Below, piece after piece: positions 1,106 through 46,949 of a stretch of 64,000 nt of DNA. Source of the DNA: Gammaproteobacteria bacterium (lineage in GTDB: Bacteria; Pseudomonadota; Gammaproteobacteria; SZUA-152); NCBI GenBank assembly GCA_013152545.1, contig JAADGF010000105.1:27950-91949 (forward strand), given 5' to 3'. Position 1 is the first letter of the stretch. Each line of letters opens with the position of its first letter. Made by a program: the position numbers and the translations under genes. The notes under the pieces are model-generated. The model saw nothing but the letters and a program-made list of their open reading frames with translations, was not told the DNA's origin and made no database searches.

Positions 1106-1363
1106 CTTACTCTTATAATTTTGCTTTTATAATTTTGAATACTGAATACTGAGCACCCCAAATTGAATCCAACATCGCTATCCGACAATCGCGACCATCA
1201 TGAGAAAACGCTATCGATCTCTTTGTTCTCCAGATACCAGGAGCCTGTCCGATGATCTGTTGACCGTTTCATTTTTGTCACCGTTGCACTTGCTTAGACG
1301 GAAAAGACGCCCCAACAGCGATAAAAATGAAACGTCAACAGACCCAGTGTATTCCTAAACATT

Positions 1364-26826: not shown

Positions 26827-26942
26827 ACGTGATGCATTCGGGTAAAAATGAACACATTTAACACCGCCACTGCGCAAGCTAAAGGCAGGCTGAACAGACA
26901 CAGCGGAACTGAATTATTTGTGCCGTTGATAACCTCCTTTGA

Positions 26943-28259
<1,317 letters not shown>

Positions 28260-28287
28260 CTAAGCCTGATTCAGATTCTATTAACTA

Positions 28288-28475
28288 GGAGCCTGTCCGG
28301 AAATAGAAAGCCGACTGCAAAAACGCCATTTTGGCTCTTTTTTACGATCACTACGTTAAATAGACTCAATATTCGCCTCAAATGCCAAAAGTAGGTGCCT
28401 GATGCAATCAAAAAAATGCACTCATAATGGCATTCCCTCTTCCCTCGTGACAGCTGCTATTCTCGAACAAGCTCC
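28288..28475 (+). mobile_element. family-2 palindromic MITE-like element, full copy 1 (~188 bp), abutting the hisZ stop
   Basis: Termini ggagcctgtccggaaatag... and ...gaacaagctcc are imperfect inverted repeats. The internal halves are an inverted duplication (caaaaacgccattttg... / ...cataatggcattccc). Same family as 38847..39029. Confidence 0.8.
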
Positions 28476-29656
28476 TAGCCGATTGTCGTTACTATCCAGC
28501 GTCCATTGTGTTTTTCTAATCGCCGATCACAAACCATGGCCGCTGCATCACCGATTTGCCCAGGCAATTGCCGCACCACCCTTTCACCCGACTGCCGCAA
28601 TTCATCAATACGCGTCTGCAAACCATCGTCTTGATCCGCTGGGGCGTAAACGCCAAAAATCTGACGACTACTGTTAGTCGCGAAATGCATAAGCGCCCGC
28701 AAATCAGCACTAAAGCCGCTCGCTGGCCGGGCTCGCCCGAATACTTCACCAATATGATCGTATCGCCCACCTTTGGCGATAGCTTGTCCAACACCAGGTT
28801 GATATGCAGCAAACACCATTCCAGTATGATAATGATAGCCACGCAACTCAGCTAAATCGTAATTCACTTGAATATCTGGATTATATTTTTGCACCTGCAA
28901 GGATATGTTTTCTAATGCATCAATCGCCTCATGAACGGATTGATCCGCTGACTTTAAAGTGTCTCTAGCCTGTGGCAAAACGTCCCGACTACCATTTAAC
29001 CACATTAACTGACTCAACATATTTTTCATGTTTTGGCCAATATCAAATTTTTGTAACAGCACATCAATTTCCGGCGCAGCTTTACGCTGAAGAGCATCAA
29101 ATAACGCACCCTCTTGCACCTCATTCAAACGGGCCTGCTTGGTCAAACCACGAAATATTCCGACATGCCCAAGATCGACGTATATATTTTCAATGCCAAT
29201 TTTCTTGAGCATGGCCAACATCAGACTTAATGTTTCAACATCGCTTTCCAGCCCTGCATGACCAAAAAGTTCTGCCCCTATCTGCATCAAACTGCGAGCA
29301 TTGGACAAATCTTCCGCATGGGTAAGTAGTACCGTACCAATATAACAGAGCCGAACAGGGTGTGGTCGGGCCAGCTGATGAGCATCAATACGCGCCACCT
29401 GAGGTGTCATATCGGCCCGAACCCCCATCATACGACCATTTTTCTGGTCGATCAGTTTATAGGTTTGCAGTTCGAGGTCGTTACCCATCCCTGTCAGCAA
29501 AGATTCGATATATTCCACAAAGGGCGGTATCACTAATTCATAGCCCCAGGTTGAAAAAAAGTCCAATAACCGACGCCGCATCCATTCAATTTGTTGAGCG
29601 TCTTCGGGCAGGAGTTCCTCTATTCCTTCTGGCAGGAGCCAATGATCGTTATTCAT
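28475..29656 (-). CDS. hisZ: ATP phosphoribosyltransferase regulatory subunit
   Basis: 393 aa; HisRS-like catalytic core without an anticodon-binding domain; adjacent to purA as in many gammaproteobacteria. Confidence 0.85.
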   Translation of the reverse strand: MNNDHWLLPEGIEELLPEDAQQIEWMRRRLLDFFSTWGYELVIPPFVEYIESLLTGMGNDLELQTYKLIDQKNGRMMGVRADMTPQVARIDAHQLARPHPVRLCYIGTVLLTHAEDLSNARSLMQIGAELFGHAGLESDVETLSLMLAMLKKIGIENIYVDLGHVGIFRGLTKQARLNEVQEGALFDALQRKAAPEIDVLLQKFDIGQNMKNMLSQLMWLNGSRDVLPQARDTLKSADQSVHEAIDALENISLQVQKYNPDIQVNYDLAELRGYHYHTGMVFAAYQPGVGQAIAKGGRYDHIGEVFGRARPASGFSADLRALMHFATNSSRQIFGVYAPADQDDGLQTRIDELRQSGERVVRQLPGQIGDAAAMVCDRRLEKHNGRWIVTTIG

Positions 29657-29923
29657 GGTTGAGGTGTTTACTGTTAATTGAATTTTTAGTTGATTTTATA
29701 TTCTGAAATACCACTTTGAATATACTGAAATGGTGACGGCTTGGTATTGAGAAAGGGTAAAACTCATTTTAGCCGCATGATTCGTCAGTTGAATCATTCA
29801 CCTTCTGCATGTATTGCTAAAATAGCGATCAAAAACCCATCAATGCATACTTGTTTTTTCACAGCCGCCCATGGCTGCCCCCCTAAGAGCCCCCATGGTC
29901 TCCAGCCCCTAAACGGACACAAA

Positions 29924-30112
29924 TCAACCGTTTATAAAATACAGCAATATTACACCAATTATCATACTGGTTAAACCAGCAAAACGTAACTGCCGATCGT
30001 CCACCTGCGTCAATAAAAGCATGGTTTTTTTCAATCCCTCTGGATTTAAAAAAGGAAAAATACCTTCAATGACCAGCACCAGCGCCAAGGCCAACAATAA
30101 ATCATGCCACAT
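29924..30112 (-). CDS. DUF2065-family small inner-membrane protein (YjeT-like)
   Basis: 62 aa with two predicted TM segments, immediately downstream of hflC as yjeT is in E. coli. Confidence 0.7.
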   Translation of the reverse strand: MWHDLLLALALVLVIEGIFPFLNPEGLKKTMLLLTQVDDRQLRFAGLTSMIIGVILLYFING

Positions 30113-30271
30113 GAGTTTTTATCACCTTTCGGTACAATCACACCTTAAGGCACAAGCGTGAATCCCGATATCGAATAAAGTTTTCGGGAATTTTCCTGCC
30201 ACCAAAACCCACCTCAGGCGTATTCGCTTATAACGAACACGCCTGAATCAATGACAGAATTAGTTGTATTA

Positions 30272-31126
30272 TTATTTAAAAAATTCGAAAAACTCACTTT
30301 TTGGTTGCAATACTAACAAATCATCCTTATTAGAAAACGATGATTTGTACGCATTAAGACTGCGATATAATGCATAGAAGTCTTTATCCTCATTATAGGC
30401 AAGCGCATAAATACTCGCGGCAGTTCCATCGCCTTCACCACGAACTTTTTCAGCATCGCGGTAGGCTTCGGCAAGAATAATGGTTCTTTGTCTGTCAGCG
30501 TCTGCCCGTATACCTTCAGCTTCCTCTTCACCACGCGCCCTTAAATCTTTGGCAACACGCTGACGCTCCGCCTCCATACGCCGATAGACGGATTCGCTAA
30601 TTTTATCATCTAAATCAATACGCTTAATACGTACGTCGACAATATCAATACCAAATTCCTGGGCGGTTTTATTAGCCTCAAGCGTCAGGATATCCATGAT
30701 CTCATTACGCTCACCCGACACCACCTCACGAATGGTGCGCTTACCAAACTCACCCCGCAAACCATCTTTTATAAACTGAGAAAGTCGCAGATTAGCACGC
30801 GCGGAGTCCCCACCCGTCGCTGTATAGTATTTTGCGACGTTGTCAATTCTCCATTTTACAAATGCATCAACGATTACGTTTTTCTTCTCGCTGGTCAGAT
30901 AACGTTCCGGATCTGCATCCATGGTTTGAATACGAGCATCAAACTTCAGCACGTTATTCATAAAAGGTATTTTGAAATATAATCCCGGCTCAAAATCAGT
31001 GCTGATAATTTCACCAAATTTAAACAACACCGCTTTTTCCCGTTGTTCCACGGTAAAGACTGACAAAGAACCAATCATCAATACCGCAGCGATAACCACT
31101 AAACTAATCATTTTCGCCGGATTCAT
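30272..31126 (-). CDS. hflC: protease modulator HflC
   Basis: 284 aa; SPFH/band-7 domain with N-terminal TM anchor. Confidence 0.95.
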   Translation of the reverse strand: MNPAKMISLVVIAAVLMIGSLSVFTVEQREKAVLFKFGEIISTDFEPGLYFKIPFMNNVLKFDARIQTMDADPERYLTSEKKNVIVDAFVKWRIDNVAKYYTATGGDSARANLRLSQFIKDGLRGEFGKRTIREVVSGERNEIMDILTLEANKTAQEFGIDIVDVRIKRIDLDDKISESVYRRMEAERQRVAKDLRARGEEEAEGIRADADRQRTIILAEAYRDAEKVRGEGDGTAASIYALAYNEDKDFYALYRSLNAYKSSFSNKDDLLVLQPKSEFFEFFK

Positions 31127-32331
31127 TAGCGTACTCCTCGACTGCGTGCACTATCCCGCTGCTCGGCAGCTGTGCGAGTTGCTGGCATTAATTCAACGGA
31201 GGATGGAGAGGAAAGAACATCCGATGCTGCACCACCTTTTATCAAACGATCCAACGGCAGATACATTAAGCTGTTTCCACCTTCAACATCGACTATAATT
31301 TTGCTCGCGTTATTCATAACGGATTCCATCGCATCGATATAAAGCCGCTTACGTGTTACCTCAGGCGCCTTTTTATATTCTGCAAGCACTTGTAAAAAAC
31401 GGCTAGTTTCACCATTTGCCTCCGCTATCACCTGCTCTTTGTAGGCGCTGGCCTCTTGGAATTGCCGTGCAGCTTTACCACGCGCCCTGGGAATAATGTC
31501 GTTGGAATAAGCTTGCGCTTCATTTTTCAAACGTTCGTTATCCTCTCGCGCTTTCACCGCATCATCAAAAGCCGCCTGCACTTGCTCTGGTGGTTGAGCA
31601 TCCTGCATGTTCACGCTGGTGATTAACAATCCCGCATTATAGCGGTCAAGAATATATTGAATAAGACTTTGAACCTTGGAAACAATCTCGGCACGACCTT
31701 CTGTAATCACAAAGTCCATGGTGTTTTTTCCGATAATTTCCCGTAACGCACTTTCGGTGGCCTGACGCAATGTGAGATCAGGGTCCTTAACATTAAAAAC
31801 ATAATCACTGGCGCTTTTAATTTTATATTGTACCGCTAATTGGATATCAACAATATTTTCATCCTTGGTAAGCATTAATGACTCCCGCTCCACTGATGTC
31901 ACTGCTTTGCGGTTTGCACTAGCAGTACGATACCCAACCGGCGCGTCCCGAATTTGTTCAATATCCACCACTTCATAGGATTGAATAAAAGGTGGTACCC
32001 ATTGCAGGCCGGGCATCGTGGTTTTAATGTATTTGCCAAATTGCAATACTACCGCTCGCTTACCCTCATCGATGGTATAAAACCCAGACACCCCCCAAAC
32101 GGCTATCGCTATGGCTAAAACAATACCAATACCAACAGAGCCAAAACCAGCCCCACCCCCTCCTTTACCACTGCCGGAACCTTTACCTGAACCTCCACCA
32201 AATAAAGATCCAAATTTATCCTGCATTTTTTTGACAACTTCATCCAGGTCAGGCGGGCCCTGATTACCTCTGTTACCACCGCCCCATGGATCTTTATCTT
32301 TTCCAGAACCACCAGGTTCGTTCCAGGCCAT
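31126..32331 (-). CDS. hflK: protease modulator HflK
   Basis: MAWNEPGGSGKDKDPWGG...; the ATG at 32331 has a GGAG Shine-Dalgarno 8 nt upstream (the track ORF starts 4 codons earlier at 32343); SPFH domain. Confidence 0.93.
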   Translation of the reverse strand: MAWNEPGGSGKDKDPWGGGNRGNQGPPDLDEVVKKMQDKFGSLFGGGSGKGSGSGKGGGGAGFGSVGIGIVLAIAIAVWGVSGFYTIDEGKRAVVLQFGKYIKTTMPGLQWVPPFIQSYEVVDIEQIRDAPVGYRTASANRKAVTSVERESLMLTKDENIVDIQLAVQYKIKSASDYVFNVKDPDLTLRQATESALREIIGKNTMDFVITEGRAEIVSKVQSLIQYILDRYNAGLLITSVNMQDAQPPEQVQAAFDDAVKAREDNERLKNEAQAYSNDIIPRARGKAARQFQEASAYKEQVIAEANGETSRFLQVLAEYKKAPEVTRKRLYIDAMESVMNNASKIIVDVEGGNSLMYLPLDRLIKGGAASDVLSSPSSVELMPATRTAAEQRDSARSRGVR

Positions 32332-32556
32332 TAAATTCTCCATCTTTAGTTGATTAAATAATTGATTAAAATAAAAATTTCCACCGCAAGCGCGGCCAGG
32401 TATTTAGAAAAATTCGTCCACTTCGCATCGCTCAAGATTTATTCGCGGTGAGCTGCGGGGAATATAATTCTCAAAGACCAACAATACCCTGCCCACCAGC
32501 AGAAGCAAAATTACTGCAATGCTGAGGCAAAAGATGAATTCTAGGGTGCTATGGCG

Positions 32557-33879
32557 TTAGCCGCAACAGTTAATAACTCGTTTATCCGGTTCTTTTTCTA
32601 ATTTTACCCCTTCTTTAGCCTGTATAGACGATAAATCTTTATAACTTATTACTATTTCCAGCAGGATGTCGCCGGTATCATCGATACATTCCCGCAACAC
32701 ATTGGCATTTTTATAAATCAAGGAACGCAACCGACCATTGCCTGGCGCAACACATACCCACTGGTGCAACATATCGCCAGCCATACGCTCCTTCATCGCC
32801 TGGAGCAACAGCGCAATACCTTCGCCAGTATATGCAGACACCCAAACCCGTACAGCCTGACCAGTTTCATCCCTGTCAATCCGAGGCTGGCAAGCGCCTT
32901 GTTCAAAACCGGCGACAAGATCTATTTTATTGTAAACCTCAAGTTGAGGCACGTGCTCCGCACCAATTTCCTTTAAAACCGCATTCACATGCTGGATATT
33001 ACCCTGACTATCCGCATAACTGGCATCAATAATATGCAGCAGCAGGCTTGCCTCACGGGTTTCTTCTAATGTGGAATGAAAGGCCTGGACGAGATCATGG
33101 GGTAATTGACGAATAAATCCAACGGTATCTACCAAAATCACCTTGCTATTGCCACCTAAATCACAACGTCTTAAAGTCGGGTCCAGGGTCGCAAAGAGCT
33201 GATCTTGTGCAAAAACATCCGCCTGGGTGATTCGATTAAATAAAGTGGATTTCCCAGCATTGGTATAACCAACCAGTGAAACGGTTGCTATATCCGCTTT
33301 CTTCCTAGCGCGACGCCCTTGCTGGCGCCGGTTATGGACTTTCGATAAACGTTTTGCAAGTTGCTTGATACGAAGACCAATTAAGCGGCGATCCGTTTCC
33401 AGTTGGGTTTCACCGGGTCCACGCAATCCTATCCCCCCCTTTTGGCGTTCCAAATGGGTCCACCCTCTTACTAATCGTGTGGATAAATGCTGCAATTGCG
33501 CCAGTTCAACCTGCAACCGACCTTCGTGCGTTGTGGCACGCTGTGCAAAAATATCAAGTATTAGCCCTGTGCGGTCAAGAACCCGGCATTGTAAAAATCG
33601 CTCCAGATTGCGTTCCTGCGCCGGTGTCAAACGGTGATCCACCAGCACGATATCAGCACCTACCGACAATATCTGCTCGCGAATTTCCTGCGCTTTGGCC
33701 TCACCGATCAAGTACTTTGGATCTGGTTTTTTACGAGCTCCGGTTACCACTGCGATCGGTTCTGCCCCCGCCGATAACGCTAGCTCCCGAAACTCATGTA
33801 ATTCCTCTTCATCCAAGCGAGAAATAAAATTGATATAGACAAGAACTGCTCTCTCACCGTTGTCGGGACGATCAAACAA
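32557..33879 (-). CDS. hflX: GTPase HflX
   Basis: 440 aa; MFDRPDNGERAVLVYINF N-terminus and GYTNAGKSTLFN G1 motif. Confidence 0.95.
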   Translation of the reverse strand: MFDRPDNGERAVLVYINFISRLDEEELHEFRELALSAGAEPIAVVTGARKKPDPKYLIGEAKAQEIREQILSVGADIVLVDHRLTPAQERNLERFLQCRVLDRTGLILDIFAQRATTHEGRLQVELAQLQHLSTRLVRGWTHLERQKGGIGLRGPGETQLETDRRLIGLRIKQLAKRLSKVHNRRQQGRRARKKADIATVSLVGYTNAGKSTLFNRITQADVFAQDQLFATLDPTLRRCDLGGNSKVILVDTVGFIRQLPHDLVQAFHSTLEETREASLLLHIIDASYADSQGNIQHVNAVLKEIGAEHVPQLEVYNKIDLVAGFEQGACQPRIDRDETGQAVRVWVSAYTGEGIALLLQAMKERMAGDMLHQWVCVAPGNGRLRSLIYKNANVLRECIDDTGDILLEIVISYKDLSSIQAKEGVKLEKEPDKRVINCCG

Positions 33880-33984
33880 CGACGCCTCCGAGAATACGGC
33901 TTTGAGGCGTCTGCTTGATTTGTTTTTGAAACCGCTTATTACTCAACTATCTATCGTAGCTTACGTCGCTTAAGAATATGAAGA

Positions 33985-34233
33985 TCATGAGCCGCGTTCA
34001 GCGCCGCCTTCAGTCGATGATGGTAATTTGATGTTTCTCGCAGGTACTACCGTCGAAATAGCATGTTTGTATACCATCTGACTCACGCTATTTTTAAGCA
34101 ACACCACGAATTGATCAAAGGAATCTATCTGCCCTTGTAATTTTATACCATTCACTAAATAAATGGCTACAGGCACTCTTTCTTTGCGCAGGGCATTTAA
34201 AAAAGGGTCTTGTAGGGATTGCCCTTTTGGCAT
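33985..34233 (-). CDS. hfq: RNA chaperone Hfq
   Basis: 82 aa; [46 protein letters not shown] Sm fold. Confidence 0.97.
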
Positions 34234-34425
34234 GTTGAATCTCCTTAATTTATCATTGTTTTATAGCCGGAGGGTAGACACCAAATAACATCTCGTTTTT
34301 GACAAACATGAGATTTCTTGATAATTGGTCAGCTCGCCCTAAGTCAAACGCATAACAGTGTGTACAGTGTATAGTATTTGTAGCATCGACGTTCCACTAT
34401 CTACTATAGCACAACGCTTGATTTC

Positions 34426-35373
34426 CTATAATTTCGTCTTAACAATGGGGTCATTTAACAGTTTTTTCAAGACCTTAGAAAATAGCTTGTTATCTAAAGT
34501 ATCAAACCAAACTCCTTTTTTGTTTGCACGCAACCACGTAAACTGACGTTTCGCCAATTGCCTCGTGGCAACGATCCCTTTTTGGATCATTAGATCGTAA
34601 GCAAGTTCCCCCTCAAAGTACTCCCATACCTGCCGATAACCAACTGCCCTTATAGACGGTAGGTTTTTGTGCAAGCCACTGCAATTGAATAGTTTTCGCA
34701 CTTCATCAACTAAGCCCTTACTCAGCATCTCATTGAAACGTAAAGCGATTTTTTCATGCAACAGAGCACGATCACTAGGGGCAAGAATTAATTGAGTAAC
34801 ATCAAAGCAAAATTCGGTGGGTTTTTCATCTTTCAAAATCTGTGACATCGCCTTACCGGTTAATTCAAATACCTCTAAAGCGCGTTGAATCCGCTGCGGA
34901 TCATTAGGATGAATTCGTTGTGCGGCCATAGGATCTACCGTCATCAAGCGTTTGTGTAGGGCTTCCAGCCCCATGGTTTCAGCATCATATTCCAACTGTC
35001 TTCGTAAGGTGGGATCTGCCGCAGGCAAAGGCGATAACCCTTCATAGAGCGCACGGTAGTACAAAAACGTCCCTCCCACCAATAATGGAATATTCCCGCG
35101 GGAAATAATTTGTTGCATTATCAGTAAGGCATCCTCTGCAAATTGCGCAGCAGAATAAGGTTCACTGGGGTCACGAATATCAATAAGGTGATGCGGCGCA
35201 ATTTTTAGGATTTGCTGATCGGGTTTAGCGGTACCAATATCCATACCACGGTACACCATGGCAGAGTCTACACTCACTATTTCGCAAGGTAGCGCCTGCA
35301 CTAAGCGCACTGCAATCTCCGTTTTCCCAGAAGCCGTTGGCCCCATCAGGAAAATTGCTGCGGGTCTTGACAT
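34426..35373 (-). CDS. miaA: tRNA dimethylallyltransferase
   Basis: 315 aa; P-loop IFLMGPTASGKTEIAV. Confidence 0.95.
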   Translation of the reverse strand: MSRPAAIFLMGPTASGKTEIAVRLVQALPCEIVSVDSAMVYRGMDIGTAKPDQQILKIAPHHLIDIRDPSEPYSAAQFAEDALLIMQQIISRGNIPLLVGGTFLYYRALYEGLSPLPAADPTLRRQLEYDAETMGLEALHKRLMTVDPMAAQRIHPNDPQRIQRALEVFELTGKAMSQILKDEKPTEFCFDVTQLILAPSDRALLHEKIALRFNEMLSKGLVDEVRKLFNCSGLHKNLPSIRAVGYRQVWEYFEGELAYDLMIQKGIVATRQLAKRQFTWLRANKKGVWFDTLDNKLFSKVLKKLLNDPIVKTKL

Positions 35374-35867
35374 TAAGCAGGAAAGCTTTTGGCTATATTT
35401 TTAGCCAGGCTTTTAGCCAAAATAAGGGCATCTTCGCGACCTTTCTTGGTGGGATAATAATCTTTACGTTCACCTATTTGATTAAAACCCATTGCATCAT
35501 AAAGACAAAGCGCAATGCTATTACTCGGTCGAACTTCCAAAAAAACAGTGTCGATTTTTTTTTGTTCTGCCACTCCCAGCATATGGGACAACAGCTGCCG
35601 CCCCAACCCCTTACCTTGTCGCTCGCTACTAACACATAGGTTTAACACGTGGGCTTCAGCCGCTCCGGTGGACATTATGCCATAGGCGACGATATAGCCA
35701 TGCATCTCACAAACCTGACAATAATAGCCAGCACGTAAACAATCAATAAAAATCTGCCTGGTCCAGGGAAAAACGTAGCTTTTCAACTCGATGGCCATGA
35801 TCTCATCCATGTCATTTTTGAGCATTGGGCGAAGAAAAAAGGGTGATGTTTCGAGTACGGCACTCAT
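35373..35867 (-). CDS. rimI: ribosomal-protein-alanine N-acetyltransferase (GNAT)
   Basis: 164 aa; GNAT motif RQGKGLGRQLL; sits upstream of miaA as in the tsaB-rimI neighbourhood. Confidence 0.8.
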   Translation of the reverse strand: MSAVLETSPFFLRPMLKNDMDEIMAIELKSYVFPWTRQIFIDCLRAGYYCQVCEMHGYIVAYGIMSTGAAEAHVLNLCVSSERQGKGLGRQLLSHMLGVAEQKKIDTVFLEVRPSNSIALCLYDAMGFNQIGERKDYYPTKKGREDALILAKSLAKNIAKSFPA

Positions 35868-36058
35868 AATTGATTACATATATACTTAGGCTTAGGGTCC
35901 GTTAAGTGTGCTTCCTGCTTGTTTTCATAACAGTAAAAGCGGTTTTTTTGAAATGGTAAAACAACGCAGAACAACCAAACAATTGCGAGGCATTTCAACG
36001 TAGCCATGAAATAAACAGGGTATTCGATGAGACTAAATGCCACGGTTATACACATCAC
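35864..36058 (-). CDS. small hydrophobic ORF (64 aa), ATGA-coupled to rimI; function unknown
   Basis: Its stop overlaps the rimI start by 4 nt. No recognisable domain; it could be spurious. Confidence 0.3.
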   Translation of the reverse strand: MMCITVAFSLIEYPVYFMATLKCLAIVWLFCVVLPFQKNRFYCYENKQEAHLTDPKPKYICNQL

Positions 36059-36065
36059 CTGAACA

Positions 36066-36989: not shown

Positions 36990-37005
36990 AAGCTCCAGTC
37001 ATTGG

Positions 37006-38544: not shown

Positions 38545-38846
38545 TTGCTCGCTCCATTTACCCTCTAACAATCAGTTGGGCGCACTTAACTTTGGACTAA
38601 AATACGCGATATCCGTTAATTGTATCAAACTTAAGATCCGCTTAGCGGGTTAAAAAAAGACCAAAAAAGGTGAATGTGAAAATGAAGCGTACGCCCGCAG
38701 AAACAGGCTATATAGTGAAGGGACAGCTAAGAGTTGATGACGAATTTACGCCAGAGAGAAACACACATCGCCCCAAACCGCAGCACTACCCCTTCATCGC
38801 CGACCATATCTCGATTTGCCAAGCAATTAATACCCCCGCTCCTAGG

Positions 38847-39029
38847 GGAGCCTGCCCGAGAATAGAAGCCTACTGCAAAAACGCCATTTTGAGTGCATTT
38901 TTTTCGATCATTTTCATTAAATAGGCTCAACATTCGCCTCAAATGCTAAAAATAGGTGCCTGATGCAATCGAAAAAATGCACTCAAAATGGCGTTCCCTC
39001 GCGACGACTGCTTTTCTCGGACAGGCTCC
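38847..39029 (+). mobile_element. family-2 palindromic MITE-like element, full copy 2 (~183 bp), between leuA start and pssA stop
   Basis: ggagcctgcccgagaatagaagcctactgcaaaaacgccattttgagtgcatttttt...aatgcactcaaaatggcgttccctcgcgacgactgcttttctcggacaggctcc; the right half is the reverse complement of the left. Track ORFs 38670..38924, 38727..38942 and 38939..39238 are artefacts of it. Confidence 0.85.
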
Positions 39030-39032
39030 AGT

Positions 39033-39860
39033 TTAGTCATCGTTATCCTCGCGCCGAGAGTGACTTTTGTTTTGATCAGGTTTCTGCGGATACTCTTGGT
39101 TATAATCCTCTTGGCCATACTTAAGACGCTCCGCTTTGCGTTTACGCAAACCCCATAGCGTATGTATGGGCCCAGACAAGGCATACAGTAGAAACACAAA
39201 AAATAACACTTGTGGCGGGTCAATTGACACAAACACAAAAACCATCACAACAACCAACAGCGAAACAAAAGGCACTTTACCTTTTAAATCAAGATCCTTA
39301 AAACTTCGATAACGTATATTACTCACCATGAGTATCCCAGCGAATAATGTTAGAACAAACGCCAAAACACGCCAATCCGCTCCCTGCTGAGCATAATCGG
39401 AACCGACCCATACCATACCGGCAATCAACGCAGCGGCGGCTGGACTGGCAAGACCTTGAAAAAAATGCTTGTCGGCGATACCAACCTGCGTATTAAAACG
39501 TGCTAGGCGTAATGCCGTACCGGCGACATAAATAAATGCTGCCAACCAACCCAACTTGCCCAAGCTAACCAACGACCATTCATACATTATCAACGCAGGC
39601 GCTAAACCAAATGAAACCATGTCTGCCAAACTATCATATTGCGCGCCAAAATCGCTCTGGGTATTGGTTAAGCGGGCAACACGCCCGTCCAAGCCATCCA
39701 TTATCATCGCTACAAAAATAGCCACCGCAGCCGCTTCAAAGCGATCATCCATCGCCGATACAATGGCGTAAAAGCCAGCAAACAGGCAACCAGTGGTAAA
39801 TAAGTTGGGTAACAGATAAATACCACGACCGCGTTTTTTTTCGGTATCAACAGAAGCCAT
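39033..39860 (-). CDS. pssA: CDP-diacylglycerol--serine O-phosphatidyltransferase (CDP-alcohol phosphatidyltransferase type)
   Basis: 275 aa; multi-TM; D-G..AR....G..D...D motif region (MIMDGLDGRVAR). Confidence 0.88.
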   Translation of the reverse strand: MASVDTEKKRGRGIYLLPNLFTTGCLFAGFYAIVSAMDDRFEAAAVAIFVAMIMDGLDGRVARLTNTQSDFGAQYDSLADMVSFGLAPALIMYEWSLVSLGKLGWLAAFIYVAGTALRLARFNTQVGIADKHFFQGLASPAAAALIAGMVWVGSDYAQQGADWRVLAFVLTLFAGILMVSNIRYRSFKDLDLKGKVPFVSLLVVVMVFVFVSIDPPQVLFFVFLLYALSGPIHTLWGLRKRKAERLKYGQEDYNQEYPQKPDQNKSHSRREDNDD

Positions 39861-39941
39861 TCGTTAATATCTAGTCTCAAACTGTAGAATTAGGATAATA
39901 GCAACTAAACACTGAATACAGCCTGTTGCCACTATAATCGT

Positions 39942-40586
39942 TTAATGCGCACGCACCAAGAGCGCTATAATTGAACTACCACCGGTCAACTCATCCCCCA
40001 CCCTGACTTCCACGTGGGAATTGGCCGGAATATACACTGTTGAATTTGCCCCAAAGGGTATAAACCCACAACGCTGCCCTTGACCGATTCGTTCGCCACT
40101 ATGAACAGAGCACAGTGGCATTTTTTTATAGAACCTGGGGGCTAATGCCAGTATAACATTATCGCCTTCATCACTTTGCACCCACTGTGCAAAATACTCA
40201 TCCGAAACTGGTACTGAGGGTTTAATGTCATTCATGACAGCATTAAACCATTGCTTGTTAACTTTGCCTTCCATCGGGCTTCTAACCGTAAATACTCCCC
40301 AGGCACGGCCTCGCAACTGTATTCGCAAGGTATCGGCTTCCAGGTAAGGATCCATTATTTTTTCGATGGCGACCACGGTGCTATCCATCGGTGCGACGAT
40401 ACCCAACGGAGTGGCTGGTATATCGCGACGAGGATCACGAAACAAAAATAGCAATACGAGTACCACTACCCCAGTAGGTATGGCTACAAAAAAACCAAAA
40501 TAATATTGCAACAAAAATGCCAATAAGACGAAACTAAAGATGGGACTCCAACCTTCTTTAGCAATAAGGGTGTGACGTTGAGGCAT
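39942..40586 (-). CDS. psd: phosphatidylserine decarboxylase (short-form, Psd-related)
   Basis: 214 aa; two N-terminal TM helices; the C-terminal GGSS is consistent with the autocleavage (G-S) site of short-form Psd; adjacent to pssA. Confidence 0.8.
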   Translation of the reverse strand: MPQRHTLIAKEGWSPIFSFVLLAFLLQYYFGFFVAIPTGVVVLVLLFLFRDPRRDIPATPLGIVAPMDSTVVAIEKIMDPYLEADTLRIQLRGRAWGVFTVRSPMEGKVNKQWFNAVMNDIKPSVPVSDEYFAQWVQSDEGDNVILALAPRFYKKMPLCSVHSGERIGQGQRCGFIPFGANSTVYIPANSHVEVRVGDELTGGSSIIALLVRAH

Positions 40587-40645
40587 GGAGGTTGTTAACT
40601 TATAAAAGGTTTGTAACCTATAATTAATTGTAACAATTCAAGCTT

Positions 40646-40806
40646 ACCATTGCTTTGCCTGCCCGATAACGGCGCCAAAAGTGTTTGTTGACACGGCTAA
40701 ACGCCACATATTTTCCAAACAAAACTATCGACAAAAAAACCAAAGGTAATCTAATGCAGCGCATTCACAAATGAACTGAGCAAGTTCAATTAGCTCAAAC
40801 TGTCAG
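40646..40806 (+). repeat. family-1 intergenic repeat, diverged copy D (ilvC-psd spacer)
   Basis: ccaaaagtgtttgttgacacgg...acaaaaaaaccaaaggtaatctaatgcag...actgagca...agctcaaactgtcag matches the cores of copies B and C. Confidence 0.55.
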
Positions 40807-40899
40807 GGTGATGTCAAAACGACAACACCACCCCAGACAAACTTAAAATGATCTAATTCGGCACAATACACTATTATCTATTGCCGAAATAAAATCATT

Positions 40900-41925
<1,026 letters not shown>

Positions 41926-42114
41926 TCATCTCCTCTCGATTCTAATAAAAATTTCATTTAAAAAAATATCGAAATCGTATTTTCAAACGTATGCCCCCTA
42001 CACCTTACACAACCGTGTCAGCACTTACTAAATGCTCATTATCAAAGAAGTGCAGCCTGATGAATAATTGCAATGTCAATTAACAGAAGGATGCGCTTCC
42101 AGGCGACGACGACC

Positions 42115-42603
42115 TTAAACATGTAACGATTTCTCACCCCGGGATATACCCGCCGCGCCGGAACGCACAGTTTCCAGTATCGGGGCTTTTATAGCCATAA
42201 TAAAGGCATCAAGTTTGTCTGCACTGCCCGTTAGCTCAATGGTGTAAGTGGTTTCAGTAACGTCGATAATGCGACCACGAAATATGTCTGTCAGCCGTTT
42301 TATTTCTTCGCGCCCCTCTCCGGTAACCCGGGTTTTAACCATCATCATTTCACGCTCAATGTGATCGCCCTCTGTCAAATCCAGCAATTTAACCACATCG
42401 ACCAACTTATTGAGTTGTTTGGTGATTTGTTCAATGATCTCTTCTGAACCACGCGTTACCATTGTCATGCGTGACAAAGTAGGGTCTTCCGTTGGCGCAA
42501 CGGACAGCGATTCGATATTGTATCCACGGGCCGAAAATAACCCAGCAACCCGGGAAAGCGCACCAGCTTCATTTTCCAGAAGTATTGATATTATGTGCCG
42601 CAT
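42115..42603 (-). CDS. ilvH: acetolactate synthase small (regulatory) subunit
   Basis: 162 aa; ACT domain MRHIISILLENEAGALSRVAGLFSARGYNIESL. Confidence 0.93.
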   Translation of the reverse strand: MRHIISILLENEAGALSRVAGLFSARGYNIESLSVAPTEDPTLSRMTMVTRGSEEIIEQITKQLNKLVDVVKLLDLTEGDHIEREMMMVKTRVTGEGREEIKRLTDIFRGRIIDVTETTYTIELTGSADKLDAFIMAIKAPILETVRSGAAGISRGEKSLHV

Positions 42604-42605
42604 GA

Positions 42606-44348
42606 TTAAGCCAGTCCTCTTCCGCGTTCTGATGCCAAATACATTTCGTGGTGCCCTTGACCTGTTTTAATCATTGGGTACACATTTTCGCTCTGGTCAG
42701 TCTCGAAATCCAAAAACACTAAACGGTCACTGTATTTGCCAAACGCTTCGTTAAGGGCATCATCGACGTCTTTCGGGTCAGTAATTTTCAGACCAACGTG
42801 CCCATAAGCTTCAGCCAGCTTAACAAAATCGGGCAACGCATCCATGTACGAATGCGAATAACGGCTTTCATAAATAAACTCTTGCCATTGCCGAACCATC
42901 CCCATGTAGCGATTATTGAGATTAACAACCTTAATGGGTAATGAATATTGCAGGCAGGTTGATAGCTCCTGAATGCACATTTGAATACTGGCCTCGCCGG
43001 TAATACAAGCAACTGGTGCATCAGGATACGCCAGTTGCACGCCCACAGCGGCAGGTAACCCGAACCCCATGGTTCCCAGGCCACCGGAATTGATCCAACG
43101 CCGTGGCTTGTCAAATTTATAAAATTGCGCAGCAAACATTTGATGCTGACCGACATCAGAGGTGACAAAAGCATCCCCCTTAGTGACTTCGTAGAGTTTT
43201 TCGATCACATATTGCGGTTTAATCAATTCACACTGACGATCATATTGAAGACAATTCTCCTTTTGCCAACCCTTAATGCGGCCCCACCACTGCGCCAGAG
43301 CCTCCTTGTCCGGCTTAGTACTCTTTTCCTTGAGTAACGCATTAATATCACGAACCACTCGCTTCACATCGCCAACAATCGGCACATCAACCCGAACATT
43401 TTTTGAGATTGAAGAAGGATCAATATCAACATGAATTATTTTTGCGTCAGGACAGAATTTTTCGATGTCGCCTGTAACTCTGTCATCAAAGCGCACACCA
43501 ATAGCAATTAACACATCGCTCTGGTGCATGGCCATGTTCGCCTCGAAAGTCCCGTGCATGCCCAACATTCCCACAAACAGGGGATCAGTAGCAGGGTATG
43601 CACCAAGCCCCATCAAAGTATTGGTAATGGGATAACCCAGATAACGCGCCAATTCGGTCACTTCGTCGGCAGCACCACTAAGCACCACACCACCGCCCGT
43701 ATAAATCATGGGTTGCCTGGCCGACAAAATGATATCAACCGCTTGCTTGATTTGCTTAGGGTGACCTTTAACCACCGGATTATACGAGCGAATATTAATG
43801 GTTTCAGGGTATTTATAGTCTACTTTCACATTAGGCGCGGTAATATCCTTGGGGATATCCACGACAACAGGCCCCGGGCGGCCAGTCGTTGCAACATAAA
43901 AAGCTTTCTTCAAGGTAACAGCGATATCCTCTACCCGTTTCACCAGAAAATTGTGCTTAACACAGGGACGGGTAATCCCAACCGAATCCACTTCCTGAAA
44001 CGCATCGCTGCCTATAAATTGTGTTGCAACCTGGCCGGTGATCACCACCATGGGAATAGAGTCAAGATGTGCAGTCGCGATCCCGGTAACCGCATTCGTA
44101 GCGCCTGGGCCGGACGTCACCAAGACAACACCCGGTTTGCCCGTCGCTCTTGCATAACCATCAGCCGCATGGGTAGCACCCTGCTCGTGCCGGACAAGAA
44201 TGTGCTTTACTTTGTCCTGCTTGTAAATTGCATCATATATATGCAACACAGCCCCACCGGGATAACCAAAAATACACTCAACCCCTTCATCGTGGAGGAA
44301 CCGCACTAATATTTCACCGCCATTTAACTTCACTATACTATCACTCAC
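42606..44348 (-). CDS. ilvI: acetolactate synthase large subunit
   Basis: 580 aa; TPP enzyme; the first in-frame start is a GTG at 44348..44346. The antisense track ORF 43524..44309 is spurious. Confidence 0.95.
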   Translation of the reverse strand: MSDSIVKLNGGEILVRFLHDEGVECIFGYPGGAVLHIYDAIYKQDKVKHILVRHEQGATHAADGYARATGKPGVVLVTSGPGATNAVTGIATAHLDSIPMVVITGQVATQFIGSDAFQEVDSVGITRPCVKHNFLVKRVEDIAVTLKKAFYVATTGRPGPVVVDIPKDITAPNVKVDYKYPETINIRSYNPVVKGHPKQIKQAVDIILSARQPMIYTGGGVVLSGAADEVTELARYLGYPITNTLMGLGAYPATDPLFVGMLGMHGTFEANMAMHQSDVLIAIGVRFDDRVTGDIEKFCPDAKIIHVDIDPSSISKNVRVDVPIVGDVKRVVRDINALLKEKSTKPDKEALAQWWGRIKGWQKENCLQYDRQCELIKPQYVIEKLYEVTKGDAFVTSDVGQHQMFAAQFYKFDKPRRWINSGGLGTMGFGLPAAVGVQLAYPDAPVACITGEASIQMCIQELSTCLQYSLPIKVVNLNNRYMGMVRQWQEFIYESRYSHSYMDALPDFVKLAEAYGHVGLKITDPKDVDDALNEAFGKYSDRLVFLDFETDQSENVYPMIKTGQGHHEMYLASERGRGLA

Positions 44349-45788
44349 TTTGGCTCACTTTGCCTGTTTAAAAGTTCTTGTTTGGTGTGTTGCCTGAGAA
44401 TATTGCAACTCCAATTTAGATTAGCTACTTTGTGCCTGGAAAACCTGCCAGACTTAAACAAAACATACGTAGTAAATCATTTTTATACTGCCCAAACCAC
44501 CCGCTCGACTACCTACCCTACTACCTACTCGCAAGCACTCTCAACAAGTACTCCCAAGAAGTACTCTCACTCACTACCGATTTGAAATTCAATTCTATCG
44601 TGCCAAAAAAGCTCATGCACCGCCCACAATATCCATGCATTAAGTAAACACAAGATAAAATAAAGAGGAGAGGCAGAATAAGCAACCAAGCCCGCGATTA
44701 ACCCATTTTTTATAACTATTTTTAGAAACAGGCCACTTTGTTTGCCTTAAATAATCGAAAAATCTGACCTTAATCGGCACTTTGCTTTGCTCTATGCCAG
44801 TCAATACCTCCCCTGGCAATCCCAAACAGCAATTCCAGCCACCAGTCCGGCATCGGGCGCTGCTTCGCCATTAAATAGATAAACGTTCAAAAATACTGCT
44901 AAGTACTCAATTCGTCAAGCCTTTAGGTTTAATTAACTACAATTCCAGGCAAATTGCTCATTTGACCTCAAATTCCGGTGCACCATCACGTGCAAAAGGT
45001 GCCGTCTACGCTTCCCCTGGATAACCATGACTGTATAGGCTCATTGCAAAATAGGTTTTCTCACATCCTGGTTTGCGTTATTTCCCCCTGACGGCTTTGC
45101 TGCTGTCGCGCTCGATTAGCCTTGGCATAGACCACAGTGTGAAGACTCGTCAACCATTCTGCATATGCCATGCAATACGACTACTGGTTAGTAACCATCA
45201 TTAGAGCAAGCAACATGGGGTAAACCAAGGATTGGGGCAACTTGTGGTTCAGAGCCTTAATTGAAAGTGAAGACACAAACATCAACAGGCTCTGGTATGC
45301 CATGGTACTTTAGGGACAGGTAACAAAAAATCATACTATGAAGCCCCTGCCCTACCGGGCATTGAATCTTTGCAAAACACCCGCATATAAATCAAAACTA
45401 ACGATATAAAACCCTATTGCTATTTGATATTGCCTGATTTACCACTACATTTAAGCGTGTAGAGGCTAATGCGTCAGCCCCCTCAAGAGTTATAGCCATT
45501 GTCCGATAAACTGATCAGATAGCTGGACGTATACAAGCGCGATTATCCAGTGGTAAAATTAACGTCGTTGGTTATTGAGGTACCATGTCGCGTTAGCTAG
45601 ATATATTTAAGCAACATCGGAATTATTCGCGTGTTGTTAGGTCAGAATGTCATACTGCATCGCATGAGGCGATTAGTGTGTTTCAATAAACGTAGTTAGC
45701 GCAAACCTGGTTGTAAATGACGCACGAACCGCACTTTTTACACATGGAAGAGGTGTGTTTGAGCAGGGTATTTTAGGGGGCAGTGCTA

Positions 45789-46109
45789 ATGTTAAACTTA
45801 TCTACGGAAGCTGTGAAAAAAATCATTATCGAAGGTATCACCGAAAGCGGAAGCAAATTTCGCCCAAGTGATTGGGCTGAAAGAATGAGTGGCGCCTTGT
45901 CCACGTTTGGGCCTGATCATCGCATCCAATATTCTCCTATGCTACAACCGCTAACACTTAACGGGGTAAAATGTGTTTCTGTGGACCCCAATCTGCGCAA
46001 AGCTTACCCTGAAATGTTTGCCTATATTATGCGTTGGGTAGAATTGAACCGTCTTAAGATCGTCGAAGTGGACGAAGAAGATGCTGTAAGCTCGAAAGCA
46101 GCTGGTTAA
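45789..46109 (+). CDS. small conserved hypothetical protein (DUF-like, about 106 aa)
   Basis: The ATG at 45789 has an AGGGGG Shine-Dalgarno (the track ORF starts 2 codons earlier at a GTG at 45783); ...KFRPSDWAERMSGALSTFGPDHRIQYSPML... resembles a widespread small proteobacterial family of unknown function. Confidence 0.6.
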   Translation: MLNLSTEAVKKIIIEGITESGSKFRPSDWAERMSGALSTFGPDHRIQYSPMLQPLTLNGVKCVSVDPNLRKAYPEMFAYIMRWVELNRLKIVEVDEEDAVSSKAAG

Positions 46110-46525
46110 TACCGCTATTATCCACCCGTATTCTACCTGTGTTGGACAATTCACTCAGCCGCCACACTTGTCGTGGCATGGCGTGTTTGTTTGCAACGCA
46201 GGTGACGGGTGCAAATCATCTATCCCATATCTCGATATCAAAGTGGCAGCACCTGCAACACGACTTCGCTGCGAGCAGCAGAGAATAGACTCACAAAAAA
46301 ACCTTTATAATCATTATGTTATAAAATAAAGTAAGTTGTGGTAAGAATGAGATACAGGCAATTCAATCAATTTGCGTAACGACTCAACCTGATTTTTAAA
46401 TGTTCAGCAACGGCTCTCACCTTACCGACCAAACGTTAGGAAGCAGACTTGCCAGAACGCTCCTACGGCCAACGTATCGCAAACGCTTTAAACGAAACAA
46501 GCAGCTAATTTCTATGTTTGGTGAA

Positions 46526-46581
46526 AAATAGACTCAAAATGGCGTTCCCTCGCGACGGCTGCTAATTATCGGACAGGCTCC
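46526..46581 (+). mobile_element. family-2 MITE, partial copy (right half only), overlapping the 3' end of the response-regulator gene
   Basis: gactcaaaatggcgttccctcgcgacggctgctaattatcggacaggctcc matches the right arm of copy 2. It supplies the last four codons and the stop (EPVR*) of the regulator. Confidence 0.7.
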
Positions 46582-46949
46582 CTCCTAGCGCGGTATTTAT
46601 CAATCATTTCCTTAATTTTTACCGAAGTAAACGGTTTAACAACAAAACCGTCGGCGCCTAAATCCGTCGCTTGCTTTATATTTTCAAAAGTATTGTGGCC
46701 ACTGACCATTGCCACAAAAATACTGTCAAATTGTGACTTTATTTCCTTAAGCACTTCAAGCCCATTTTTCCCCGGCATATTAATATCCAGAAAAACCAGA
46801 TGTGGTTTGAATTTTTTGATATTTTCGATCACCTCATTGCCATTCTCCACCTGGGCAACAACTTCGCAATTATAAGTGGCAAGATTGCTCTTTAATAAGG
46901 CACGCATAATTTTTATATCATCAGCAACCAGAACCCGACGTTTTTGCAT
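46566..46949 (-). CDS. single-domain response regulator (CheY-like receiver)
   Basis: 127 aa; DD...D phospho-acceptor pocket (VLVADDIKIM...LVFLDINMPG...) and a conserved K. Confidence 0.85.
   Translation of the reverse strand: MQKRRVLVADDIKIMRALLKSNLATYNCEVVAQVENGNEVIENIKKFKPHLVFLDINMPGKNGLEVLKEIKSQFDSIFVAMVSGHNTFENIKQATDLGADGFVVKPFTSVKIKEMIDKYRARREPVR

What the first reader, a model, noticed from the sequence alone, without database searches (positions are those of the whole stretch)
28288..46581. Family-2 ~185-bp palindromic MITE-like element inserted exactly at gene 3' ends and supplying a stop codon
There are full copies at 28288..28475 and 38847..39029, a right-half copy at 46526..46581, and a 13-bp solo terminus (ggagcctgtccga) at 1240..1252. 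The element is a large near-perfect palindrome: a unit ggagcctgtccgagaatag...cgccattttgagtgcatttttt, a short core, then the inverted unit. Each copy abuts or overlaps a minus-strand gene's 3' end. Copy 1 overlaps the hisZ stop by 1 nt. Copy 2 ends 3 nt before the pssA stop. The partial copy encodes the last four codons and stop of the response regulator, so it replaced the native C-terminus. A long hairpin at a 3' end could act as a bidirectional terminator or stabilising stem. This targeting pattern resembles REP/ERIC/BIME-type elements.
Basis: seen in the sequence. Interest (0 to 1): 0.5.

Follow-up and report, generated by a model that had tools for sequence, protein, structure and literature searches.

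The report
Small hairpin transposon targeting CTAG sites
The repeat is a real miniature, non-coding transposon (MITE) that inserts at the TA of CTAG sites, so copies surviving at TAG stop codons rebuild the stop; it is an ordinary kind of selfish element, though from a family not found in any library or paper searched here.

Summary
There are two full copies (28288-28475 and 38847-39029), a truncated arm (about 46522-46581) and a 13-nt terminus (1240-1252). A weak internal fragment lies at 44735-44779.

The element belongs to a large MITE family, usually 160-161 nt long. I recovered about 95 distinct copies from marine-sediment-type metagenomes, several gammaproteobacterial MAGs and one Pseudomonas plasmid.

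Across 92 copies the flanks read CTA|GGAGCC...GGCTCC|TAG. The first G and last C never change when the outer flank bases differ. The duplication is therefore TA and the preferred target is CTAG. This matches IS630/Tc1-mariner elements, although the IS427 group of IS5 cannot be excluded.

Because the element begins with G, insertion into a C-TAG stop codon rebuilds TAG. This happened at hisZ, and in 12-20 of the family copies.

Close relatives have empty sites at all three loci. The response regulator really lost its last six residues to the element, and a neighbouring MIF gene is also missing.

The excess at gene ends is explained by the rare CTAG target plus loss of insertions inside genes. 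There is no orientation bias, no terminator or promoter signature and no Rfam match. Compensatory changes do maintain the hairpin. No autonomous parent element was found.

The parts
28288..28475 (.). Full MITE copy 1 (188 nt). Its terminal inverted repeats are decayed. It lies between hisZ and purA.
   Evidence: profile match E 1e-31.
28286..28287 (.). Left TA target-site duplication of copy 1. Together with the first G of the element it forms the junction CTAG at 28285-28288.
   Evidence: Sequence; family-wide flank logo.
28475..28478 (-). Right junction CTAG of copy 1: the last C of the element, the TA duplication and the flanking G. Read on the minus strand, 28475-28477 is the hisZ TAG stop codon.
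   Evidence: The reconstructed empty site aligns colinearly with the relative L013.
38847..39029 (.). Full MITE copy 2 (183 nt), the best-preserved hairpin, lying between pssA and leuA. Its flanks are decayed and no clean TA/TA duplication remains.
   Evidence: profile match E 9e-37; absent from the same spacer in L011, L013 and L016.
46522..46581 (.). Truncated copy consisting of the right arm only. Its outer end is fused to the response-regulator ORF and encodes its last residues E-P-V-R and the TAA stop (46566-46568).
   Evidence: profile match at 46524-46581, E 6e-13.
1240..1252 (+). 13-nt exact copy of the element terminus (GGAGCCTGTCCGA) downstream of carA. It is probably the relic of a deleted copy. 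It has no TA flank.
   Evidence: Truncated and miniature derivatives of the family are common in other loci.
44735..44779 (+). Weak match to the central and right-inner part of the family profile. It is possibly another decayed fragment in the ilvB-upstream spacer.
   Evidence: nhmmer E 5.5e-4; sequence; this stretch is not among the parts of the spacer that match the relatives.
28475..29656 (-). hisZ (393 aa). Its stop codon is the insertion site of copy 1.
26943..28235 (-). purA, 52 nt downstream of copy 1.
39033..39860 (-). pssA. Its stop codon lies 3 nt from copy 2.
46566..46949 (-). CheY-like response regulator (127 aa). Its native last six residues were replaced by junction and element sequence.

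Best explanation
These are copies and relics of a non-autonomous DNA transposon (MITE). The family consensus is 160-161 nt; the window carries a 183-188-nt variant.

Anatomy. The element has 19-nt terminal inverted repeats (GGAGCCTGTCCGAGAATAG). The two arms pair into a long hairpin around a short asymmetric core (CGTTAAATAG ... CTATTCGCCTCAAATG).

Mechanism. A transposase supplied from elsewhere in the genome (not identified here) cuts and pastes the element into the TA of the rare tetranucleotide CTAG and duplicates the TA. The element starts with G and ends with C, so both junctions read CTAG again. An insertion into the TA of a C-TAG stop codon on either strand therefore regenerates TAG in the same frame and leaves the protein unchanged. 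Such insertions survive, as do intergenic ones, while insertions inside genes are purged.

This filter is why the copies appear glued to gene 3' ends. Copy 1 (hisZ) is the textbook case. Copy 2 (pssA-leuA spacer) is an old intergenic insertion with decayed flanks. The regulator copy inserted a few codons before the native stop, and its other half was later lost in a deletion or replacement that also removed the neighbouring MIF gene. The regulator now ends in element-encoded residues.

The copies in this genome are old and probably immobile.

Shown: family membership, TA duplication and CTAG target, empty orthologous sites, the enrichment statistics, the C-terminal replacement and the covariation in the hairpin.

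Inferred: cut-and-paste by an IS630-type transposase (or an IS5/IS427-type one), the selection filter, and the order of events at the regulator locus.
For: Repeat family.
- About 95 distinct copies were recovered; 98 terminal-repeat pairs have a modal length of 160-161 nt.
- One copy lies on Pseudomonas sp. MPC6 plasmid pMPC6-328K, 82% identical over 161 nt with canonical CTA...TAG flanks.
- Fifteen pairs of copies are at least 97% identical yet sit in unrelated flanks, which indicates recent movement elsewhere.

Target site, from 92 copies.
- Left flank: C 77, T 80, A 88. Right flank: T 85, A 85, G 82. Fifty-seven copies are fully canonical.
- The element's first base is G in 92 of 92 and its last base is C in 91 of 92, even where the outer flank base differs (TTA..TAG, GTA..TAG, CTA..TAA). 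The duplication is therefore TA, not a 4-bp CTAG.

Empty sites.
- Relatives with proteins 82-91% identical lack the element at all three loci.
- The window sequence minus the element and one TA aligns colinearly with L013 across the hisZ stop, the spacer and the purA start.

Stop codons.
- Twenty incoming ORFs end exactly in the junction TAG, against 1-3 at any other offset.
- After in-silico excision, 12 of 73 sites are stop codons, against 20 of 599 background CTAG sites (odds ratio 5.7, p = 4e-5). Coding sites make up 25% against 73% (p = 6e-16). Within non-coding plus stop sites the share is 12 of 55 against 20 of 159 (p = 0.12).
- CTAG is the rarest palindromic tetranucleotide in the window (49 sites, observed/expected 0.62).

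Regulator locus.
- Orthologues end ...KYHAG(K/N)AD(C/H)E*, while the window protein ends ...KYRARREPVR* at the same length.
- DNA homology to the relatives stops at 46592-46594 and resumes at about 46080-46091. The MIF gene present in both relatives is absent from the window.

No coding or known RNA function.
- No Rfam match.
- No orientation bias relative to the upstream gene: 9:9 and 16:14.

Literature.
- Bacterial MITEs typically carry TA at their termini and make target duplications. RUP is thought to be mobilised by IS630-Spn1 at TA targets (PMC2229807).
Against: - No autonomous element with matching terminal repeats was found. I searched the 120 metagenome loci, PLSDB and the pMPC6 plasmid. 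The IS630-family element on that plasmid has different repeats (TA|GTGTCCTGAGTTAAAAG).
- The transposase family is therefore inferred only from the target site. The IS427 group of IS5 also makes 2-bp duplications (PMC3281130).
- Copy 2, the truncated copy and the 13-mer lack clean TA flanks.
- The inner hairpin shows compensatory changes: 14 pairs against 6.0 +/- 1.2 in shuffles. A purely selfish, structure-indifferent element does not predict this.
- Genome-wide copy number in the source organism could not be measured. Only this window of its 281-kb contig was readable.
Confidence: 0.85

Rival explanations
1. The element is mobile, but it is kept by the host or spreads because its long hairpin works at the RNA level. 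It might act as a 3' stabiliser, an RNase III processing site, a transcription attenuator or a terminator for the upstream gene.
For: - The hairpins are very stable (z -9.2 and -5.1).
- Compensatory substitutions maintain the inner helices across 44 diverse copies: 14 pairs changed on both sides against 6.0 +/- 1.2 in shuffles and 3-8 in slid controls, with 95% of cells paired.
- The asymmetric core is almost invariant.
- Compensatory changes have been reported for a transcribed Bacillus repeat, bcr1 (PMC3184786). RNase III is reported to process hairpins in Correia/NEMIS transcripts (PMC2229807).
Against: - There is no orientation bias relative to the upstream gene.
- G-U mismatches (26) and A-C mismatches (33) are about equally common in my tally, so neither strand is favoured.
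- No U-tract or terminator-like site lies within the copies.
- Copy 1 lies between hisZ and purA, which are 38 nt apart in a relative. A strong terminator there would harm purA.
- The window copies are decaying (82% identical, damaged terminal repeats), which argues against host-level selection here.
- Covariation could equally reflect a DNA-hairpin requirement for transposition, or concerted evolution of the two arms.
Confidence: 0.15
2. It is an IS5-type MITE, like MITEPsy1, that duplicates a 4-bp CTAG/YTAR target. In that case the element would start at GAGCC.
For: - The flanks CTAG|GAGCC...GGCTC|CTAG can formally be read this way.
- MITEPsy1 duplicates CTAG or YTAA (PMC3189936).
- The terminal repeat has an IS5-like look; this is my recollection and was not tested.
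Against: Where the outer flank base is not C or G (TTA..TAG five times, GTA..TAG, CTA..TAA, ATA..TAT and others), the adjacent G or C does not change with it. It is G in 92 of 92 copies and C in 91 of 92. A 4-bp direct repeat would require it to change.
Confidence: 0.03
3. It is a REP/BIME-type or ERIC-type repeat, that is, a palindromic unit mobilised by a RAYT (REP-associated tyrosine transposase) or one of the enterobacterial repeat families.
For: It has an intergenic, gene-end location and a palindromic structure. ERIC is also a hairpin repeat over 100 nt long.
Against: - It has a TA duplication and 19-nt terminal inverted repeats, which REP units lack.
- At 160-188 nt it is far longer than the small REP stem-loops described in PMC3184786.
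- The family consensus gave no blastn match in 5,426 E. coli genomes.
Confidence: 0.02
4. The shared sequence is a native, vertically inherited gene-end signal rather than an insertion.
For: None beyond its position at the gene ends.
Against: - All three orthologous sites in two relatives lack it.
- The same sequence occurs in unrelated contexts in many other organisms.
Confidence: 0.01

Closest known systems
RUP (repeat unit of pneumococcus), the MITE thought to be mobilised by IS630-Spn1
   Same: Both are small, non-coding, intergenic, multi-copy elements with terminal inverted repeats that insert at TA targets (PMC2229807).
   Different: RUP is 107 nt, occurs in a Gram-positive host and has an identified parent element. 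The present family is 160-188 nt, occurs in Gammaproteobacteria, has unrelated terminal repeats and has no parent identified here. Its strong CTAG preference and its G...C ends, which rebuild TAG, are specific to it.
Correia elements / NEMIS of Neisseria
   Same: Both are MITEs of roughly 100-155 nt that form long hairpins in transcripts and are mostly intergenic. The review's general description of bacterial MITEs (TA at the termini, target-site duplication) covers them (PMC2229807).
   Different: The review describes promoter and IHF-binding motifs in such elements. The present element shows no sigma-70-like promoter consensus, and I saw no IHF-like site by eye. An RNase III role is untested here. 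I did not compare the sequences directly.
IS630 family insertion sequences (Tc1/mariner superfamily)
   Same: Both duplicate TA and prefer CTAG. The CTAG preference of IS630 is from my own knowledge (Tenzen et al. 1990). The IS630-family element on pMPC6 is flanked CC-TA|G...C|TA-GG, and its transposase stop codon TAG is built from the target TA plus G. That is the same junction logic seen at hisZ.
   Different: The MITE has no transposase. Its terminal repeat is not that of the pMPC6 element and shares only a loose TGTCC.GAG..AA.AG resemblance. The IS427 group of IS5 also makes 2-bp duplications (PMC3281130) and cannot be excluded as the parent.
bcr1 of the Bacillus cereus group
   Same: Both are MITE-like repeats of about 155-160 nt in which base-pair compensatory changes maintain a hairpin (PMC3184786; here).
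   Different: bcr1 has 5-bp direct repeats and is known to be transcribed. The present element has a 2-bp TA duplication, and its transcription is unknown.
ERIC / REP / BIME of enterobacteria
   Same: All are intergenic palindromic repeats near gene ends.
   Different: There is no sequence match. REP/BIME units are short stem-loops (PMC3184786) that, from my own knowledge, are RAYT-associated and make no target duplication. The present element has terminal inverted repeats and a TA duplication.

Membership tests
MITE (bacterial miniature inverted-repeat transposable element) | Small size (under about 300 nt) with terminal inverted repeats | tested here: met
   The elements are 160-188 nt long with a 19-nt terminal repeat, GGAGCCTGTCCGAGAATAG, at both ends.
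MITE (bacterial miniature inverted-repeat transposable element) | Target-site duplication flanking the copies | tested here: met
   TA lies on both sides in about 85-88 of 92 copies. It is intact at window copy 1.
MITE (bacterial miniature inverted-repeat transposable element) | Multiple dispersed copies and presence/absence polymorphism between related genomes | tested here: met
   About 95 distinct copies sit in unrelated contexts. Empty sites occur in relatives at all three window loci.
MITE (bacterial miniature inverted-repeat transposable element) | No coding capacity | tested here: met
   At 160 nt the element is too short to encode a transposase. In alignment A7, 1-nt indels fall in the only ATG-started frame I noticed. 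No transposase homologue lies in the loci.
MITE (bacterial miniature inverted-repeat transposable element) | An autonomous parent element with matching terminal repeats | tested here: inconclusive
   None was found in 867 kb of loci, in PLSDB or next to the pMPC6 copy.
IS630 / Tc1-mariner-mobilised element | TA target duplication with a CTAG preference | tested here: met
   The 4-bp alternative is excluded because the terminal G and C are invariant.
IS630 / Tc1-mariner-mobilised element | Terminal repeats shared with an IS630-family transposase gene | tested here: not met
   The only IS630-family element examined (pMPC6) has different terminal repeats. This does not exclude another IS630 member. 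The IS5/IS427 group also makes 2-bp duplications.
IS5-group MITE (for example MITEPsy1) | 4-bp duplication of CTAG/YTAR | tested here: not met
   Non-canonical flanks show that the G and C belong to the element.
REP / BIME | Short G+C-rich stem-loop units, without terminal repeats or a target duplication, linked to a RAYT transposase | tested here: not met
   The element is 160-188 nt long and has terminal repeats and a TA duplication. It has no match in E. coli genomes. I did not search for a RAYT gene.
ERIC | Sequence similarity to the 127-nt enterobacterial consensus | tested here: not met
   The family consensus gave no blastn match in 5,426 E. coli genomes, which carry ERIC copies.
Intrinsic (Rho-independent) terminator | G+C-rich stem followed directly by a U-tract | tested here: not met
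   No terminator-like site was found within either full copy or the truncated copy. The flanks after the hairpin read TAGTTAATAG and CCTAGGAGCG on the transcribed strand.
Described structured RNA family (Rfam 15) | Match to a covariance model | tested here: not met
   No hit at gathering score in the window except a tRNA. No hit at E <= 1 on a window copy, and only a chance-level one (Ocean-VII, 13.6 bits against a gathering score of 53.5) beside a foreign copy.

The most novel reading that the evidence does not exclude
The family is more than a selfish MITE. It is a structure-selected hairpin module with an almost invariant asymmetric core, kept paired by compensatory substitutions across many gammaproteobacterial lineages and a Pseudomonas plasmid. 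It would act on nucleic acid, either as an RNA 3'-end or processing element, or as a single-stranded DNA hairpin required by a not-yet-described transposition route. Its G...C ends would have evolved to restore TAG so that it can colonise stop codons harmlessly.
Probability: 0.15. Interest if true: 0.55.

Novelty: new member of a known kind. Interest (0 to 1): 0.3.

Why it matters
The practical value lies in annotation and in understanding this genome.

- It gives a consensus, a target rule (TA within CTAG) and a profile for a MITE family that is abundant in sediment Gammaproteobacteria. The many copies cut off at contig ends suggest it often breaks metagenome assemblies there.
- It explains, without invoking any special targeting of 3' ends, why such elements appear welded to stop codons.
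- It documents one real gene-level consequence: a response regulator with an element-encoded C-terminus, next to a lost MIF gene.
- It adds a case of compensatory evolution in a MITE hairpin, which bears on the old question of whether such hairpins are selected at the DNA or the RNA level.

None of this would surprise a specialist in mobile elements.

Tried and rejected
- Exact-protein look-up of the window's hisZ found nothing, although an identical protein is in the homologue database. I used its relatives instead.
- Two of the ten loci from the genome-contig scan (L001, L003) were chance matches.
- Search for the parent element:
  - Interior solo terminal repeats turned out to be truncated or miniature derivatives.
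  - tblastn with the pMPC6 IS630 and IS5 transposases found nothing in the metagenome loci.
  - The first 100 kb of pMPC6 holds no second copy. The second match place reported in that record was not located.
- There were no matches in viral contigs, phage genomes or E. coli genomes.
- A full-text search for the terminal-repeat sequence found no paper.
- The idea of selection on orientation was rejected. All three window copies face their upstream gene with the same arm, but the family shows 9:9 and 16:14.
- A small ORF in the right arm (MIEKIDSKW...) was rejected because indels and covarying positions disrupt it.
- The 46092-46525 stretch beside the truncated copy has no homologue except a 42-nt piece of another window repeat.

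Full report
**1. The observation**

The sequences at the stated coordinates are as described.
- The repeat finder links 28356-28439 to 38917-39000 at 92% identity, and links both to 46524-46563.
- A pattern combining the terminus and an inner block hits exactly the five expected arms, with 0.00 expected by chance.
- Copy 2 folds at -93.5 kcal/mol (z -9.2) and copy 1 at -73.5 kcal/mol (z -5.1).
- NCBIfam confirms purA, hisZ, leuA, pssA, psd, a CheY-like regulator and a hybrid histidine kinase.

The positions relative to the genes are also correct.
- The hisZ stop (28475-27 on the minus strand) overlaps the element by one base.
- The pssA stop lies 3 nt beyond copy 2.
- The regulator reads E-P-V-R-stop from the truncated copy.
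- The 13-mer at 1240 is an exact terminus.
- A profile built only from foreign copies recovers the three window copies and one weak extra fragment at 44735-44779.

**2. What the family is**

A scan of species-representative genomes found full-length copies about 70% identical and about 160 nt long. They occur in Sedimenticola, Chromatiales and other gammaproteobacterial MAGs.

Together these loci give 98 terminal-repeat pairs with a modal length of 160-161 nt, along with many copies cut off at contig ends and several truncated or miniature (24-76 nt) derivatives.

The consensus is GGAGCCTGTCCGAGAATAG...CGTTAAATAG-(variable loop)-CTATTCGCCTCAAATG...CTATTCTCGGACAGGCTCC. Mean pairwise identity is 81%.

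A copy with canonical flanks lies on the conjugative Pseudomonas sp. MPC6 plasmid pMPC6-328K. Fifteen pairs of copies at least 97% identical sit in unrelated flanks, so the family has moved recently in some genomes.

The two window copies carry a 22-nt internal insertion, are only 82% identical to each other and have damaged termini. They are old copies.

**3. Target site and duplication**

In 92 distinct copies the left flank is C/T/A in 77/80/88 copies and the right flank is T/A/G in 85/85/82 copies. Fifty-seven copies are fully canonical, reading CTA|G...C|TAG.

The flanks could be read in two ways: a TA duplication with the element spanning GGAGCC...GGCTCC, or a CTAG duplication with the element spanning GAGCC...GGCTC. 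The non-canonical sites separate the two readings. In TTA..TAG, GTA..TAG, CTA..TAA, ATA..TAT and similar sites, the adjacent G (92 of 92) and C (91 of 92) do not follow the outer base. The duplication is therefore TA and the preferred target is CTAG.

This is the classic behaviour of IS630 (from my own knowledge). The IS630-family element on pMPC6 shows it directly. That element is flanked CC-TA|G...C|TA-GG, and its transposase stop codon TAG is made of the target TA plus G. Its terminal repeats are not those of the MITE, however.

The IS427 group of IS5 also makes 2-bp duplications (PMC3281130). No parent element was found, so the transposase family remains inferred.

**4. Empty sites**

Two relatives from one ENA assembly, with proteins 82-91% identical to the window's, are syntenic across the whole region. 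None of their loci contains the element (and the alignments).

At hisZ-purA, relative L013 has a 38-nt spacer. The window sequence with the element and one TA removed aligns colinearly with L013 from the end of hisZ through the spacer to the start of purA.

The window hisZ is one codon shorter (...TTIG* against ...TTINQ*). Its TAG aligns with the relatives' final Gln codon. The C-TAG that served as the target therefore looks like a lineage-specific change, but the reconstruction shows that the stop existed before insertion. The element merely rebuilt it.

**5. The regulator locus**

Orthologues end ...KYHAG(K/N)AD(C/H)E*. The window protein has the same length but ends ...KYRARREPVR*. DNA homology stops at 46592-46594, at the sequence GCG CTA GGAG|GGAGCC.

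Homology resumes only at about 46080-46091, inside the DUF3579 gene. The MIF gene that both relatives carry between the two genes is absent from the window. The element arm itself is cut off at about 46522.

The simplest reading is an inference. The element inserted at a TA a few codons before the stop. Its far half and the adjoining DNA were later deleted or replaced. The changed tail lies beyond the last conserved columns of the receiver-domain alignment, so the protein is probably still functional.

**6. Why the copies sit at gene ends**

Twenty incoming ORFs of at least 80 codons end exactly in the junction TAG, whereas every other offset has 1-3.

I applied a stricter gene map and excised the elements in silico. 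The sites then classify as follows.

| Site class | MITE sites (n = 73) | Background CTAG sites (n = 599) | Test |
|---|---|---|---|
| Stop codon | 16% (12) | 3.3% (20) | odds ratio 5.7, p = 4e-5 |
| Non-coding | 59% (43) | 23% (139) | not tested |
| Coding | 25% (18) | 73% (440) | p = 6e-16 |

Among sites that do not disrupt a gene (stop plus non-coding), the stop share is 12 of 55 against 20 of 159, which is not significant (p = 0.12). CTAG is also the rarest palindromic tetranucleotide in the window (49 sites, observed/expected 0.62).

Target choice plus purifying selection is therefore enough. No mechanism that recognises 3' ends is needed.

**7. Function beyond selfishness**

Evidence against a host function:
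- Orientation relative to the upstream gene is random (9:9 at stop codons, 16:14 just downstream).
- No promoter-like or terminator-like site lies inside the copies.
- There is no Rfam match.

The one feature that goes beyond a plain MITE is covariation. On 44 diverse copies the consensus hairpin has 95% of cells paired. Fourteen pairs change on both sides, against 6.0 +/- 1.2 in shuffles (0 of 500 reach 14) and 3-8 in slid controls. Several pairs show three pair types; for example, columns 47/132 show AU 22, CG 9 and GC 2.

G-U and A-C mismatches are about equally frequent (26 against 33, my tally), so neither strand is favoured. This fits three possibilities: a DNA-hairpin or both-strand constraint, concerted evolution of the arms, or RNA selection in both orientations. 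It cannot distinguish among them. Comparable compensatory changes are reported for bcr1 (PMC3184786).

**8. Verdict**

This is a real feature and a new member of a known kind. It is a TA-duplicating, CTAG-targeting MITE family that I found in no library or paper searched (Rfam; phage, plasmid and E. coli collections apart from the one unannotated plasmid copy; a full-text search for the terminus).

Its MITE reading and its claim of C-terminal replacement are upheld. Its ideas of 3'-end targeting, a REP/BIME relationship and a terminator role are not.

Noticed in passing
window 900-1130, 26650-26850 and 46376-46416: A second, unrelated repeat family of about 200 nt lies downstream of carA and purA, with a 42-nt piece downstream of the regulator. 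It contains the motif GTAAC..CTCAACCTG and a CTGAGC...GCTCAG stem. Two of its copies lie within about 110-170 nt of the truncated relics of the MITE.
   Followed up: partly
window 10522-10682 and 19934-20076: Two further inverted-repeat pairs: 28-nt arms, 100% complementary, 105 nt apart; and 30-nt arms, 87% complementary, 83 nt apart. Both contain GTGAGCAT and may belong to another MITE-like family.
   Followed up: no
window 46092-46565, compared with L011 10385-11535 and L012 10385-11140: The window lacks the MIF-family gene (PF01187) that both relatives carry, convergent with the response regulator. About 430 nt of unique non-coding sequence takes its place.
   Followed up: partly
L016 10615-10766: In one relative the hisZ-purA spacer is expanded to 152 nt by a different AT-rich repeat built of TAATAGCGAATGAT-like units. 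It starts right after the hisZ TAG stop, so the same spot has been colonised independently.
   Followed up: no
L142 1540-2714 (pMPC6-328K 100239-101413): An IS630-family insertion sequence has a transposase ORF with no internal stop. Its TAG is formed by the duplicated target TA plus the next base of a CCTAGG site.
   Followed up: partly
L036 4-207, L046 761-968, L049 2715-2927, L069 582-779, L127 246-454: Some family copies are 198-213 nt long because they carry nested insertions of about 40-50 nt. Two of them (L046, L127) share the same insert, CTCGGCAATTGCTCCTGCATTGCTCTACCTACGT... This suggests an even smaller mobile unit.
   Followed up: no
L005 (JAIVTC010000407.1) and proteins P0022, P0047, P0125 and others: A 3-kb contig binned as Bathyarchaeota carries a copy about 90% identical to those in gammaproteobacterial MAGs. 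Several proteins named Kaarinaea lacus (a cyanobacterium) are 60-67% identical to this gammaproteobacterium's regulator and HisZ. Both look like mis-binned or contaminant contigs.
   Followed up: no
window 28475-28483, compared with L013 and L016: The window HisZ is 393 aa and ends ...TTIG*. Both relatives are 394 aa and end ...TTINQ* or ...TAINQ*. The window TAG aligns with their last Gln codon (CAA/CAG), which suggests a C-to-T change created the C-TAG site that the element then used.
   Followed up: partly
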